IMG/VR virus record: IMGVR_UViG_3300010389_002125
Coordinates: 3,254 to 67,253 of that record
Length of the DNA stretch: 64,000 bases
Direction: 5' to 3' (one strand)
Source: a virus
Shown: positions 39,244 through 42,200 of the stretch, one piece after another
How the letters are laid out: each line of letters starts with the position of its first letter
How positions within the stretch are numbered: the first letter of the stretch is position 1
Position numbers and translations under genes: made by a program
Notes under the pieces: generated by a model
Databases searched by the model: none
Seen by the model: only the letters and a program-made list of their open reading frames with translations
Told to the model about the DNA's origin: nothing

Positions 39244-42200
39244 ATGGCTGTTGATTATATGAATTTGTTTGGAGGAAAGGGGGTTTTACCTCCTGGCCAG
39301 GAAAATGTTCCTAGAGCATTTGCGGTAGCCAGGCAAGTCGTTGCGTCTACTAGAGCTGGTAAAGCTGGACTTATAAAAGTTATTTATGAAAAGGGAAAAA
39401 TTAGGTTTTTTAGTAACGTTACTAATAAGCCTTATGATGATTTAACTGAGGCTTTAAGTAAGACTAGGGCAGGTACAGGTGGAAGATTTAGTACAGCATT
39501 AGAAGTTTTTTCTGCTTCTGAGTCTCCGTCTACCAATTTAGGCTCTATAGGTAGGACACTCTCTTCTTTTGGTACAGACAGGTCTGGTTCTGGTAGGCAA
39601 GTTTTTAACGACATGCTTTCGAGGCTGGAAAAAATTCAAACAGAAGGTGGTTCCAGGTATCAAACATTAGTAGATGCAGGCATTAATGTTGAAGAGTTTT
39701 TAAAGTCTGGACAAATGGTTCAGTCTACTTATAGTCTTGACGCAGAAACAGTTTTCAACACTATGGATGAGTATAGGAAAACTAAGCCGGACGAGCGCAC
39801 AAAAATGATTGAAAAAGCAGACGCAAGACTTAGAGATTTACTAACTGACCCCAATGCTGTTCAAACTCCAAAAGAACAAGGAGCTAGACTTGGTTCAGGT
39901 ATTAGTTTTCTCGATTCGAAAAAAGCTATTAAGGTTATAGGGTTTAGGCTTGCGGATTCTGTTACTGGAGAAAACACTACGTTGACTAGTTATCAGGCTC
40001 ATTTACTCTCCGCTGTGGTGGGTAACCCATTTTTTAATCCACAAGCTTTTGGAAAAATCATCGGAGATACCAGTCAAAGCAGTTTAATCGCTGATGGTAA
40101 AGCAGCAGGTAAATTTTCTGATAAATCACTTAAGATAGCAAAAAGACAGAGAGCCATTTTGGGAGAAAGACCTATATCCCTTGCTGGTGAAGATTTATTT
40201 CAATTCTTATCTAACGCAGTAGATGAGGGTTTGATAACTGGGCAAAAAAAGAATCTTGTAACCAAAACGAACGCTAAGCTGGCTAATCATGTACTGATTA
40301 CAGACTTTGAATATGATGTTATGTTAAATTTTGCGTATAAAGATAAGGCAGATGAAATAGCTCTTAAAACGGCAAGAACTGAGCAGGAAAAAATTCTATA
40401 TAGAAATGCAAAATCTGGAAACTATGTTCAAGGTGTAATGGATTTTTTCCAAGGTAAACCTAGTGGTACCACGCGTGCTTCTAGAATGGTAGAGGATAAA
40501 TACAAGATGACATCTGACGAGTTTGAAACTTTACGTAGGATCATTAGAGACGCAGTTGAGCAAGACGGTCCAAATGGTAGATTAACGGCGTTTAATGCTG
40601 CGACTAGTGAGTTTGGTTCTGATGTATTGAAGAAAAGACTTAAGCAATTATTTTTAAAGGAATTTGGAGACGATGCAGCAAAAGTAGATAAGTTCATGTA
40701 TGTTACTGACGCTTTAATGAAAGTTCCTGAGTTATCTAAAGATGGTGCAGACTTAGCTAATGTCAAATTTTTTCAAGCACAAGTTAATTTTATTAAAAAG
40801 CAAATAGCTGATGTTAAACCAATGTTAGAAGATCCAGGATTGTCAATTGAAGACAAGCTTGTTCTGCAAGACAGTATCAAAAAACTTGAAAGAACACAAA
40901 GAAATTTTCAAAATGCGATAGACCATGGTGGACAGGTAACTGGTCGTATATCTGTTTTTGGTGTTGGTACAGCAAAAGACATAGTATCTGTATCAGAGTT
41001 TGAATCAGGGTTAGATGATATAGCATTTATCTTGAATAAAACTTCGGTAAAGCTTGAGGCAGGCTTTGCTGGTATAGGTGAAAACTTAACTGAGTTTATT
41101 AATCTTTCTGGAATGACGAGTGGTTTTGAGGATAATGTTAAGGTGGACTATTCTGCCGTAGCAGCACATGGTTCCTTTTTTGGCAGTGAAGAGCAGATAA
41201 GAGCCGCAACACAAAGAGCTGAAGTTTTGCAGGCTGAATTGACGGATGCAATTGAGAATAACTATTTTAGTCCTAGATTACGAGAGATAATTGACAAAGT
41301 TGCTAGCTCCTCAGCAGACGAAATATATGATGACGCTAATGATTTTTCTGTTATGGCTGCAACTAAAGCCAGGGAGCAGGCAAAAGTTATACAAGAATAT
41401 TTGGCTAGAGGAGGAAGGGTATCTGATAATACGGAAATACTAAATTCTATTTTCGACATAGTTGCCAGAGAGGCTTATAGATACGAATATGATAAAGGTG
41501 AAGTTAAAATGATAATGGCCAATGTTTACAGATTTGGTATAGATTCTGAAGCAGGTCTTTTAGGTAGAAGTAAGTATAAGGGGTTGGGTAGGTATAAGCA
41601 ATATCAAGCTAGCGAAATATTCTTAGGTGGTAAAAATGGTTTAGCTTTTGGAGGCGATAAATTTACCATACAAGTAGGAGATGAGTCATTAGATATCGCA
41701 GAAGAGGTTATTAAGTTTAGAATAGCAGATCACAAAGTTTTATTCTCTGAAGATATGGTAGCTAAATATATAGATTCTCTTGGTGGTTTCGACTTAGACG
41801 ACAAAGGCCTTCCAGCAATAACTAGGTTTAAAACAGCTAATGGAGTTGAAAAGTTGGCATTCGATATGTTGAGGCAGCCGACTGGTCCAGAGGAGTCCTT
41901 ATTTTTACTTCCGAATTTTGACGCTTTGACGGTTAAGCACTTGTTGGATCGTGATGAGATGCAGCATGCGTTGCTAAATTTGCAGACGGAATTTTCTGAT
42001 ATGGCTTCTGCAAGAGGTGTTTTTGAAAACGTTTTACAGGATATGACTGACAGGAATCTTGCTGGTGTTACAGGTTTGGGTGTTGATGACGTAATGTCTA
42101 GATTTCAAGAAAGCGCAAATATTCTTAGTGAAATATTTGACACTGGTAGATTGGAAGGATTTTATTCTGTTAATTTCGAAAAAGATGCAGATCTTGCCAG

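What the first reader, a model, noticed from the sequence alone, without database searches (positions are those of the whole stretch)
41700..41915. Non-canonical RNAP active site: DLDD instead of DxDxD, and RQP after the aspartate loop (circular permutation?)
Seen: the loop reads GGF-D-L-D-D-K, one residue shorter than DFDGD or crAss DFDIDK. MLRQPT (R at 41872), which resembles the NRQP/NRAP motif, lies about 24 residues downstream of the loop, and I found no RxP just upstream. Known: in beta'/RPB1, YonO and RdRPs the RxP precedes the aspartate triad. Inference: a circularly permuted or rewired catalytic barrel, possibly a distinct two-barrel polymerase lineage that DxDGD-based searches would miss.
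Basis: partly seen in the sequence, partly recalled or inferred. Interest (0 to 1): 0.85.

Follow-up and report, generated by a model that had tools for sequence, protein, structure and literature searches.

The report
Phage tail-module polymerase-like protein, odd active site
A 1,837-residue gene among the tail genes of an uncultured large phage is predicted to fold like single-chain cellular-type (two-barrel) RNA polymerases, but its metal-binding loop is one residue short and its Arg-x-Pro loop comes after that loop, so it is probably a new polymerase family that standard searches miss.

Summary
GGFDLDDK (aa 847-854, nt 41782-41805) and RQP (R877 at nt 41872) lie in ORF 39244-44757, 24 residues apart. 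This copy is not degenerate: in 267 distinct homologue cores D850, D852 and D853 are kept in 257 of 257 rows, and R877, P879 and E884 in 258 of 258. No column upstream holds a conserved RxP. Sequence methods (Pfam, PHROGs, PDB profiles, hhalign) find nothing. AlphaFold models of the core (pLDDT 85 and 66) give modest structural matches: Z 2.9-7.2, 144-352 residues aligned. The only matches that span the whole model are two-barrel RNA polymerases: QDE-1, plant RDR2, and Thermus phage P23-45 gp96 / P74-26 gp62. Secondary-structure order and covariation fit a canonical strand-strand-helix-Asp loop-strand half-barrel. The RQP loop sits on an extra hairpin whose first strand pairs with the strand after the Asp loop, which places R877 beside D853. 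I therefore read it as rewired rather than circularly permuted. I could not inspect 3D coordinates, so this is inference. The likely function is a virion-delivered RNA polymerase. The gene lies in a conserved tail-gene block of roughly 200-kb uncultured phages. The scan has noted the same family on at least eight other genomes.

The parts
39244..44757 (+). ORF of 1,837 aa (P0001), the polymerase-like giant protein. Its start is 3 nt after the stop of the upstream 2,188-aa ORF.
   Evidence: No Pfam or PHROG family. 33 relatives, and 142 representative clusters at E<=1e-3.
40936..41109 (+). First beta cluster (aa 565-622), the candidate first barrel. It carries the conserved basic residues R568 (nt 40945), K578 (nt 40975) and K603 (nt 41050).
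   Evidence: Strands at model 11-17, 21-27 and 64-68. R568 kept in 188/192, K578 in 208/209, K603 in 228/229. Hairpin covariation z 9.1. The structural alignment to QDE-1 starts here, model 1 to chain 719.
41146..41148 (+). D635, a conserved acidic residue in the VYxDP segment. It is a candidate fourth metal-site carboxylate.
   Evidence: D in 217 and E in 18 of 236 rows. The segment after it (model 83-88) covaries with the residues after RQP, pairs 83-326, 84-326, 87-327 and 88-326. Its role is inferred by analogy with QDE-1 D709 (PMC9508822, passages read).
41149..41475 (+). Helical insertion between the two beta clusters (aa 636-744).
   Evidence: Helices at model 82-190. It occupies the place of the helical neck/head insert (808-913) between DPBB1 and DPBB2 of QDE-1 (PMC1750930, passages read).
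41524..41550 (+). Strand aa 761-769 (VYRFGIDSE) with R763 and E769, the candidate beta3 of the catalytic barrel.
   Evidence: Strand at model 210-214. R763 kept in 240/250, E769 in 215/250. Top covarying pair 213-277, and parallel register with model 276-281 at z 6.1.
41551..41709 (+). Variable, partly disordered insertion (aa 770-822). It occupies the place where canonical enzymes carry the RxP loop.
   Evidence: pLDDT is under 50 at model 222-236. The alignment is gap-rich here. No conserved RxP.
41710..41781 (+). Hairpin aa 823-828 / 831-834 plus helix 836-846, the candidate beta4-beta5-alpha2. R826 is kept in 224 of 255 rows.
   Evidence: Strands at model 269-274 and 277-280, helix at 282-292. 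Conservation.
41782..41805 (+). Acidic loop GGFDLDDK (aa 847-854): D850, D852, D853.
41803..41874 (+). Beta hairpin aa 854-863 / 869-877. The first strand follows the Asp loop and the second ends in R877.
   Evidence: Strands at model 300-309 and 315-323. Antiparallel covariation in register i+j=624, z 4.8, pairs model 323 (R877) with 301 (G855).
41872..41895 (+). RQPTGPEE loop (aa 877-884): R877, P879 and E884 are invariant.
   Evidence: The Asp loop and this loop covary at offset 27, z 5.7.
41896..41913 (+). Strand aa 885-890, hairpin partner of 869-877.
   Evidence: Strand at model 331-336. Covariation z 5.5.
41923..43203 (+). Conserved helical region after the barrels (aa 894-1320). It includes LGxYxNR (aa 1127-1133, nt 42622-42642) and ExAID (aa 1188-1192, nt 42805-42819). 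It may hold bridge-helix or trigger-loop equivalents.
   Evidence: Helices. Invariant L1127 G1128 N1132 E1188 D1192 in 34 sequences. The QDE-1 alignment runs on to chain 1112-1146, through the flap. The functional assignment is inference.
44401..44754 (+). Conserved C-terminal domain (aa 1720-1837) with GPPLLPGGSAYE, preceded by a hydrophobic segment. Function unknown.
   Evidence: Conservation 0.51-0.60 per 40-aa block. Consensus.
32675..39241 (+). Upstream 2,188-aa ORF, directly after two small ORFs (31484-32029 and 32036-32662). Part of the conserved gene block.
   Evidence: The same order, 167-208-2188-1635-150-157->3053 aa, is seen in L022.
45221..56632 (+). Downstream 3,803-aa ORF with lysin-like and tail or tape-measure-like PHROG matches. 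Part of the conserved gene block.
   Evidence: phrog_20474 at E 9.8e-121, and phrog_52 and phrog_167 weakly.

Best explanation
The ORF encodes a very diverged single-chain two-barrel (double-psi beta-barrel) nucleotide polymerase, most likely a DNA-dependent RNA polymerase carried in the virion. It would be delivered with or through the tail to transcribe the first phage genes. The catalytic barrel keeps the canonical order strand-strand-helix-acidic loop-strand. The metal loop is DxDD (D850, D852, D853) instead of DxDxD. The Arg-x-Pro 'Pro-gate' loop that canonical enzymes place about 40 residues before the aspartates is absent there, and a long variable insertion takes its place. An invariant R-Q-P-(T/S)-G-x-x-E loop sits instead on an extra beta hairpin appended after the last canonical strand. 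The first strand of that hairpin pairs with the strand that follows the Asp loop, so R877 returns to the same face of the barrel, next to D853/K854. There it could contact the 2'-OH groups of the RNA 3' end and the incoming NTP, as QDE-1 R962 does. R568, K578 and K603 of the first beta cluster would hold the product and NTP phosphates. Shown: the motifs, their conservation, the predicted secondary structure, the fold matches and the gene context. Inferred: the metal binding, the role of R877, the substrate and virion packaging.
For: (1) The conservation is of catalytic grade. D850, D852 and D853 are kept in 257/257 rows, R877, P879 and E884 in 258/258, K578 in 208/209 and K603 in 228/229.
(2) The AlphaFold2 model of aa 555-1040 has pLDDT 85.1 and pTM 0.86.
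(3) In an all-against-48,161-chain structural search, the only 2 of 50 listed rows aligning more than 150 residues are QDE-1 (7y7p_A: rank 3, Z 4.8, rmsd 5.2, 232 aligned, chain 719-1030) and P74-26 gp62 (8f5m_A: Z 3.7, 193 aligned).
(4) In the second look at 630 Foldseek candidates, ranks 1 and 2 are Arabidopsis RDR2 (Z 4.8, 225 aligned) and maize RDR2 (Z 4.3, 223 aligned). P23-45 gp96 also appears (Z 2.9, 144 aligned).
(5) With the 841-aa model, QDE-1 gives Z 7.2 (255 aligned, chain 706-1112) and Z 6.5 (352 aligned, chain 693-1146). That covers DPBB1, insert, DPBB2 and flap.
(6) In QDE-1 and gp96 the target range of the 486-aa model's alignment ends 19-27 residues after the DxDxD motif (QDE-1 numbering from PMC1750930).
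(7) The local context helix-LGG-F-D-L-D-D-strand mirrors gp64 and gp96, which read helix-G-x-D-[YF]-D-G-D-strand.
(8) Covariation gives hairpin 300-309/315-323 in a register that pairs R877 with G855, coupling between the Asp loop and the RQP loop, and a parallel pairing of strand 761-769 with 830-835.
(9) Context: the gene lies between tail genes (sheath 27659-28903, baseplate J 60318-61487) in a block kept in relatives.
(10) There is one copy per genome in 5 of 5 near-complete 193-216-kb relatives. None of the 4 searched has a beta'-type domain, and none of 5 has a sigma-70 region 2.
(11) P23-45 sets a precedent for a tail-gene-encoded virion two-barrel RNAP (PMC10770324, passages and section 12 read).
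Against: No sequence method links the family to any polymerase. Pfam finds nothing for the protein or for 67 members at E<=10. PHROGs finds nothing. PDB profile searches find nothing. hhalign against P23-45 gp64 and gp96 gives probability 0.1. Foldseek finds no PDB match at E<=0.001 with either model. All VIA Z-scores (2.9-7.2) are below the value of 8 that the tool itself calls possibly a common arrangement. The two defining sequence motifs are not met in canonical form. No activity, virion proteomics or transcript data exist. A tail-module position also fits a purely structural or ejection protein.
Confidence: 0.6

Rival explanations
1. The catalytic barrel is truly circularly permuted or strand-swapped. 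In this reading the C-terminal hairpin 869-877/885-890 with its RQP loop takes the barrel positions that canonical beta1-beta2 (or beta3-beta4) occupy. The barrel topology itself would then differ from every described two-barrel polymerase.
For: R-Q-P-T-G followed by a hydrophobic strand looks like the canonical strand-RxP-loop-strand element, compare FNRRPDLPTG in gp64 and FRNPVMGHGG in gp96, but it lies after the Asp loop. Weak covariation puts strand 885-890 parallel to 823-829 (z 3.1) and strand 869-877 parallel to 753-758 (z 3.0), as if the hairpin were part of the barrel wall. The region upstream that should hold beta3 to beta4 is variable.
Against: The order hairpin-helix-Asp loop-strand is canonical. 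The strongest non-hairpin covariation is the canonical beta3-beta5-like parallel pair. Sequential structure aligners still align 225-352 residues through both barrels, which a permuted barrel would interrupt. The covariation signals for this reading are at noise level (z about 3, Neff 147).
Confidence: 0.15
2. The protein has a two-barrel fold but a different chemistry. It could be an RNA-dependent or primer-independent RNA synthase, a DNA polymerase or primase (as PolD is among two-barrel enzymes), or a nucleotide-second-messenger synthase that acts on injection.
For: The closest structural matches are RNA-dependent enzymes, QDE-1 and RDR2. QDE-1 has both DNA- and RNA-templated activity (PMC9508822, abstract and passages read). 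The altered metal loop and relocated Arg could change sugar or template specificity.
Against: An invariant Arg-x-Pro, which in QDE-1 reads ribose 2'-OH groups (PMC9508822, passages read), argues for ribonucleotides. The phage precedent in this gene context is a DNA-dependent RNAP (PMC10770324, passages read). Nothing here tests the substrate.
Confidence: 0.15
3. It is not a polymerase. It would be a structural or ejection protein of the tail lumen or baseplate whose conserved acidic loop binds metal or peptidoglycan, for example a double-psi-barrel lytic transglycosylase like MltA, RlpA or the 3D domain. Those family names are recalled and come from no call.
For: The gene sits between tape-measure-like giant genes. 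Structural Z-scores are modest. Double-psi barrels with conserved aspartates occur in cell-wall lytic enzymes of phage tails (recalled). A language-model look-alike search listed tape-measure clusters at scores of 0.87, below the tool's 0.9 lead threshold.
Against: None of the 59 families that any of the 67 members matched at E<=10 was matched by more than 4 members, and no cell-wall-lytic family is among the 25 families listed. No MltA- or RlpA-like chain appears among the 50 listed rows of 48,161 chains compared, while five different polymerases appear across the searches. The invariant Arg and Lys residues in the first beta cluster, and the two-cluster-plus-helical-insert architecture, fit a nucleic-acid enzyme.
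Confidence: 0.1

Closest known systems
Thermus phage P23-45 gp96 (virion RNAP fused to the tape measure protein) and gp64 / P74-26 gp62 (non-virion RNAP)
   Same: These are single-chain two-barrel enzymes of tailed phages. gp96 is encoded in the tail module and delivered by the virion (PMC10770324, passages read). They are structural matches to my model: 8f5m_A Z 3.7 with 193 aligned, and 8h2n_A Z 2.9 with 144 aligned. The local helix-G-x-D-x-D...strand context is similar.
   Different: gp96 and gp64 have canonical DFDGD and DYDGD motifs, with RNP and RRP 38 residues upstream. Here the loop is DLDD and RQP lies 24 residues downstream. There is no detectable profile similarity. Here the protein is a separate ORF beside tape-measure-like giants, not fused to one, and the phage has a sheath, so it is contractile-tailed.
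QDE-1 (Neurospora) and plant RDR2, the eukaryotic RNAi RNA-dependent RNA polymerases
   Same: These are the best whole-model structural matches, at Z 4.8-7.2 with 225-352 aligned residues covering DPBB1, helical insert, DPBB2 and flap. The first-barrel basic residues have similar spacing: QDE-1 R738/K743/K767 (PMC9508822) against R568/K578/K603 here. A helix followed by GG precedes the acidic loop; the SGGDLDGD consensus is recalled.
   Different: They carry DxDGD with RxP (962-964) upstream of D1007 (PMC9508822, passages read). They are cellular RNAi enzymes and dimeric. No sequence similarity is detectable.
crAss-like phage phi14:2 gp66 virion RNA polymerase
   Same: It is a giant virion-packaged single-chain two-barrel RNAP of a phage with a non-standard metal motif, DFDxD (bioRxiv 10.1101/2020.03.07.982082, abstract in the search listing).
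   Different: gp66 keeps three aspartates in DxDxD spacing. It did not appear among the rows listed in my fold searches, which is not evidence of difference. crAss-like phages are podovirus-like, and their polymerase is a capsid cargo protein (recalled).
Coliphage N4 vRNAP
   Same: It is a functional analogue: a giant polymerase ejected from the virion to start early transcription (PMC13434306, abstract in the listing).
   Different: N4 vRNAP is a T7-like right-hand polymerase (recalled), which is an unrelated fold.

Membership tests
Two-barrel (double-psi beta-barrel) RNA polymerase superfamily, single-chain QDE-1/RDR/phage clade | Two beta-barrel domains on one chain, separated by an insert and followed by a helical flap or bridge region, superposable on known members | tested here: inconclusive
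   The only matches spanning the model are QDE-1, RDR2 (two species), P74-26 gp62 and P23-45 gp96, at Z 2.9-7.2 with 144-352 aligned residues. These Z-scores are below the tool's caution level of 8. Foldseek finds nothing at E<=0.001. Coordinates were not inspectable, so barrel closure was not verified.
Two-barrel (double-psi beta-barrel) RNA polymerase superfamily, single-chain QDE-1/RDR/phage clade | DxDxD metal-binding motif in the loop between the helix and the last strand of the catalytic barrel | tested here: not met
   The loop is in the right secondary-structure context but reads D-x-D-D in 257 of 257 rows. No member has DxDxD at this place.
Two-barrel (double-psi beta-barrel) RNA polymerase superfamily, single-chain QDE-1/RDR/phage clade | Conserved R-x-P (Pro-gate) loop upstream of the aspartate loop | tested here: not met
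   There is no conserved RxP upstream: 38 of 246 members have any such string and no column is conserved. An invariant R-Q-P lies 24 residues downstream instead.
Two-barrel (double-psi beta-barrel) RNA polymerase superfamily, single-chain QDE-1/RDR/phage clade | Conserved lysines or basic residues in the first (beta-like) barrel facing the active site | tested here: inconclusive
   R568 (188/192), K578 (208/209) and K603 (228/229) lie in the first beta cluster. Their spacing resembles QDE-1 R738/K743/K767 (PMC9508822). Their position relative to the Asp loop could not be measured.
Two-barrel (double-psi beta-barrel) RNA polymerase superfamily, single-chain QDE-1/RDR/phage clade | Significant sequence or profile similarity to a described family (Pfam RdRP or RNA_pol_Rpb1_2, or hhalign to phage RNAPs) | tested here: not met
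   searches gave no match.
Two-barrel (double-psi beta-barrel) RNA polymerase superfamily, single-chain QDE-1/RDR/phage clade | Templated, Mg-dependent NTP polymerisation | not testable with these tools
   This needs biochemistry.
Virion (ejected) phage RNA polymerases | Present in the virion and delivered to the host | not testable with these tools
   Only gene context is available: the gene lies in the tail module between the putative tail chaperone ORFs and the baseplate, and the block is kept in L022.

The most novel reading that the evidence does not exclude
The catalytic barrel is topologically new. The appended hairpin with the RQP loop would be an integral wall of the barrel, replacing the canonical first hairpin in reversed orientation. 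The metal site would be built from DxDD plus carboxylates outside the loop (E884 and/or D635). That would make this a distinct active-site architecture within two-barrel polymerases, in a widespread family of about 200-kb phages that inject it through a contractile tail.
Probability: 0.15. Interest if true: 0.9.

Novelty: new variant of a known kind. Interest (0 to 1): 0.7.

Why it matters
The DxDxD loop and the upstream RxP loop are treated as hallmarks of the two-barrel polymerases that transcribe all cellular genomes. RNAP discovery in phages, including P23-45 and crAss-like phages, has relied on finding DxDxD. This family is large: 142 clusters at 50% identity, in contigs of up to 216 kb. 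It keeps the fold but spells the metal loop DxDD and supplies the Arg-x-Pro from another element. If it is active, the catalytic chemistry tolerates a rebuilt site. It would also mean many phages carry transcription enzymes that current annotation cannot see, and that tail-module-encoded polymerases are not confined to Thermus siphoviruses.

Tried and rejected
Sequence annotation led nowhere. Pfam and PHROGs on the ORF and its neighbours found nothing for this ORF. tblastn of the ORF against 50,697 phage records gave no match. PDB profile searches with A1 and A6 returned only chance helical hits at E>=0.057. A Pfam scan of 67 family members at E<=10 found no family in more than 4 members. hhalign of A6 against P23-45 gp64 and the gp96 N-terminus gave probability 0.1. 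The ESM Atlas look-alike search returned hypothetical proteins and tape-measure clusters at or below 0.91, with low recognition.

Foldseek against PDB gave nothing at E<=0.001 with either model. The wide VIA search with the 841-aa model was swamped by helical-hairpin matches to model residues 17-108. BFVD gave three uncharacterised Caudovirales proteins at E 1.4e-5 to 5.2e-5, with no annotation.

A degenerate-copy explanation is rejected because of the invariance of DxDD. A HAD-phosphatase or reverse-transcriptase reading of 'FDLDD' was considered from memory only. I dropped it because the secondary-structure context and the fold matches do not fit.

Literature searches found no description of a DxDD two-barrel polymerase or of this family: 'two-barrel / RNA polymerase / QDE-1 / phage', 'double-psi / RNA polymerase / virion / bacteriophage / single-subunit', 'DxDD / double-psi' with 0 papers, and 'circular permutation / double-psi / RNA polymerase'. 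These include the 23-family RNAP alignment of PMC10770324 and the QDE-1 motif figures, and they could bear on whether such a family was already listed.

My covariation analysis is weak: 231 of 267 rows, 312 of 350 columns, Neff 147. It recovered the expected hairpins but could not fix the full strand order. The Arabidopsis RDR2 catalytic residue numbers, the E. coli beta' motifs and the cell-wall-lytic family names that guided my reasoning are recalled and not verified here.
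Full report
**What is there.** The window is bases 3254-67253 of a single 67,253-base virus record, which CheckV rates 32% complete. All large ORFs are on the + strand. They form a structural module:
- large terminase at 6082-7941 and portal at 13197-14837
- major head protein at 18492-19550
- two sheath-like genes at 24963-26582 and 27659-28903
- two small ORFs at 31484-32662
- three giant ORFs of 2,188, 1,837 and 3,803 aa, with a 148-aa ORF between the last two
- a Baseplate_J gene at 60318-61487

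The finding lies in the 1,837-aa ORF (39244-44757, P0001).

**Observation.** GGFDLDDK is aa 847-854 (nt 41782-41805). MLRQPT starts at aa 875, so R877 is nt 41872. The only RxP strings in the protein are at 877 and 1693.

**Is it more than chance?**
- A word-indexed search with aa 560-1100 gave 33 relatives, all unannotated, from 95% down to 23% identity.
- A full HMMER scan of 1.84 billion representatives with aa 480-1320 gave 142 proteins at E<=1e-3, 88 at <=1e-10 and 21 at <=1e-30. The stretch shared by the weakest hits is exactly the motif region, query 340-430.
- In IMG/VR, 120 stretches encode a relative and 77 loci were kept, on contigs of up to 216 kb.
- Among one genome for each of 185,579 prokaryote species, only one contig has it, a Cyclobacteriaceae MAG. 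The family therefore belongs to uncultured, apparently non-integrating phages.
- In the 34-sequence alignment the invariant residues are G723 R763 R826 L846 G847 G848 F849 D850 D852 D853 K854 R877 P879 E884 D893 L1127 G1128 N1132 E1188 D1192.

I then aligned 337 hits to a profile of the core and collapsed them to 267 distinct rows. Counts are over rows with a residue at that column:

| Residue | Kept | Residue | Kept |
|---|---|---|---|
| G847 | 257/257 | P879 | 258/258 |
| D850 | 257/257 | E884 | 258/258 |
| D852 | 257/257 | K578 | 208/209 |
| D853 | 257/257 | K603 | 228/229 |
| R877 | 258/258 | R568 | 188/192 |
| | | R763 | 240/250 |

The more distant members read LGTFDLDD[KS]G ... R[QD]P[KS]G.EE, still with DxDD. 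The first refutation condition, that homologues carry a normal DxDGD and this copy is degenerate, therefore fails. DxDD and the downstream RQP are the family's rule.

**What fold?** Sequence methods are silent: Pfam, PHROGs, PDB profiles, hhalign to P23-45 gp64 and gp96, and a Pfam scan of 67 members.

I folded two pieces with AlphaFold2 and family alignments. The first was aa 480-1320 (31 sequences, pLDDT 66.4, pTM 0.61). The second, after trimming homologues from loci to fit the size limits, was aa 555-1040 (94 sequences, pLDDT 85.1, pTM 0.86).

The good model shows this order of elements:
- a first beta cluster (model 11-17, 21-27, 64-68)
- a helical insertion of about 110 residues (82-190)
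- a second beta cluster (191-336)
- further helices

Foldseek against PDB found nothing at E<=0.001 for either model. The independent all-against-representatives aligner gave modest scores, but the pattern is consistent:
- Of 48,161 chains, the only two listed rows that span the model with more than 150 aligned residues are QDE-1 (rank 3, Z 4.8, rmsd 5.2, 232 aligned, chain 719-1030) and P74-26 gp62 (Z 3.7, 193 aligned).
- In the second look at Foldseek's 630 candidates, ranks 1 and 2 are Arabidopsis and maize RDR2 (Z 4.8 and 4.3; 225 and 223 aligned). P23-45 gp96 also appears (Z 2.9, 144 aligned).
- With the longer model, QDE-1 reaches Z 7.2 (255 aligned, chain 706-1112) and Z 6.5 (352 aligned, chain 693-1146). 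That covers DPBB1 (680-792), the helical neck/head insert, DPBB2 (916-1018) and the flap. The domain limits are from PMC1750930 (passages read).
- All other rows in these lists are matches of 50-110 residues to helical elements.

Five different two-barrel polymerases, and nothing else, match the overall architecture. The scores are nevertheless below the level at which the tool advises trust. I could see only the first and last aligned residues, not the residue pairs.

**Anatomy of the active-site region.** Around the motif the predicted order is as follows:
- strand 823-828
- turn
- strand 831-834
- helix 836-846
- loop GGFDLDD
- strand 854-863
- turn
- strand 869-877
- loop RQPTGPE
- strand 885-890

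In P23-45 gp64 and gp96 the sequence around the canonical motif reads strand-turn-strand-short helix-G-x-D-[YF]-D-G-D-strand, with RRP or RNP 38 residues upstream. In QDE-1 the barrel ends seven residues after D1011 (PMC1750930). The part up to and including the strand after the Asp loop is therefore canonical in order. What is extra is the hairpin 869-890 with RQP.

To get at strand neighbours without coordinates I ran a mean-field covariation analysis. It used 231 of 267 rows, after dropping rows with more than 35% gaps. It used 312 of 350 columns, after dropping columns with 30% or more gaps, and Neff was 147.
- It recovers the predicted hairpins: 565-571/575-581 at z 9.1, 869-877/885-890 at z 5.5, and 854-864/868-877 at z 4.8.
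- The last of these has register i+j=624, which pairs R877 with G855.
- Its strongest long-range signal puts strand 761-769 parallel to 830-835 (top pair 213-277; z 6.1).
- It puts the same strand, weakly, antiparallel to 854-864 (z 3.1).
- That is what I derive for canonical beta3 relative to beta5 and beta6. My derivation rests on the QDE-1 domain limits and recalled descriptions of the fold, not on a read source.
- The Asp loop and the RQP loop covary at offset 27 (z 5.7).
- The segment after D635 covaries with the residues after RQP (pairs 83-326, 84-326, 87-327, 88-326).

In canonical enzymes the RxP loop follows beta3. Here strand 761-769 is followed by a variable, partly disordered insertion of about 50 residues (pLDDT under 50 at model 222-236; gap-rich columns).

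**My reading.** This is not a circular permutation. The Pro-gate loop has been lost from its canonical linker, and an R-Q-P loop is supplied on an appended hairpin that brings the Arg back beside the aspartates. A distance in the model could not be measured. Weak signals at z about 3 (strand 885-890 with 823-829, and 869-877 with 753-758) leave room for a reading in which the hairpin is part of the barrel wall.

**Mechanism proposed (inferred).** D850, D852 and D853 would bind the catalytic Mg2+ ions, perhaps with D635 or E884 as an outer carboxylate, as D709 is in QDE-1. R877 and P879 would act as the Pro-gate, reading the 2'-OH of the 3' end and the NTP, as R962 and P964 do in QDE-1 (PMC9508822, passages read). 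R568, K578 and K603 would hold the product and NTP phosphates, as R738, K743 and K767 do in QDE-1. The conserved helical region with LGxYxNR and ExAID may supply bridge-helix or trigger-loop functions.

**Context.**
- The block 'two small ORFs, about 2,190 aa, polymerase-like ORF, one or two ORFs of about 150 aa, giant ORF' recurs in L022, which is 25% identical.
- In L065 the same block is cut into many ORFs.
- Five near-complete relatives (193-216 kb, 92-100% complete) each have one copy.
- In G002 the gene is split at profile position about 256-259, between the two beta clusters. In G003 it is split at about 380-393, after the RQP hairpin.
- None of the 4 relatives searched has a beta'-type domain. 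None of the 5 searched has a sigma-70 region 2.
- The precedent for a tail-module, virion-delivered two-barrel RNAP is P23-45 gp96 (PMC10770324).

Virion delivery is thus plausible but untested.

**Comparison and novelty.** The protein works, by inference, like the single-chain two-barrel RNAPs of the QDE-1/RDR/phage clade. It fails two of their defining sequence features (DxDxD and an upstream RxP), and it has no detectable sequence similarity to any of them. I therefore file it as a new variant of a known kind and not as a member of a described family. My four literature searches found no description of it, but supplements were closed.

The scan's own notebook shows that other agents reached similar readings for relatives on at least eight other genomes. 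Those are AI notes, not independent evidence. My tests on this window agree with them.

**Verdict.**

| Question | Verdict or probability |
|---|---|
| Observation | confirmed |
| Two-barrel polymerase-like enzyme with a DxDD site and a relocated RxP loop | about 0.6 |
| True barrel permutation | about 0.15 |

Noticed in passing
G002:C1:193085-194669 and G003:C1:63719-65237 (relatives reached through L052 and L065): In two complete relatives the polymerase-like gene is naturally split. In G002 the split falls between the two beta clusters (profile position about 256-259). In G003 it falls just after the RQP hairpin (about 380-393). These are domain boundaries, reminiscent of split large subunits in cellular RNAPs.
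   Followed up: partly
L065:2101-23795: In this complete 209,701-bp phage with terminal repeats, the whole giant-gene block is broken into many ORFs of 150-900 aa, where the window and L022 have ORFs of 2,188, about 1,700 and more than 3,000 aa. I did not examine whether this reflects real splits, frameshifts or recoding.
   Followed up: no
window 45221-56632: The 3,803-aa ORF matches phrog_20474 ('endolysin') at E 9.8e-121 over five stretches, and matches tail and tape-measure PHROGs weakly. It is probably the tape measure or tail-lysin giant of this phage.
   Followed up: no
window 44401-44754 (aa 1720-1837): The C-terminal domain after a hydrophobic segment is strongly conserved (GPPLLPGGSAYE ... 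TTMYN). Its function is unknown. In some IMG/VR loci only this part was matched by tblastn (for example L049 and L058).
   Followed up: no
window 40681-40930 (aa 480-562): A long, confident helical hairpin precedes the first beta cluster (model 28-82 of the 841-aa model). It attracts Gre/Gfh1/HelD-type coiled-coil matches at Z 6-7. This is probably only a generic coiled coil.
   Followed up: no
whole record G000: The record is rated 32% complete and its relatives are 193-216 kb, so the window comes from a jumbo-class contractile-tailed phage. Only 1 of 185,579 prokaryote species genomes holds a relative of the gene.
   Followed up: partly
BFVD entries A0A6J5NTF7, A0A6J5M9G6, A0A6J5MEC6_1: Three uncharacterised 'uncultured Caudovirales phage' proteins of 851-1,141 aa match the core model at E 1.4e-5 to 5.2e-5 with only 11-15% identity. 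They may be further, more distant branches of the family.
   Followed up: no
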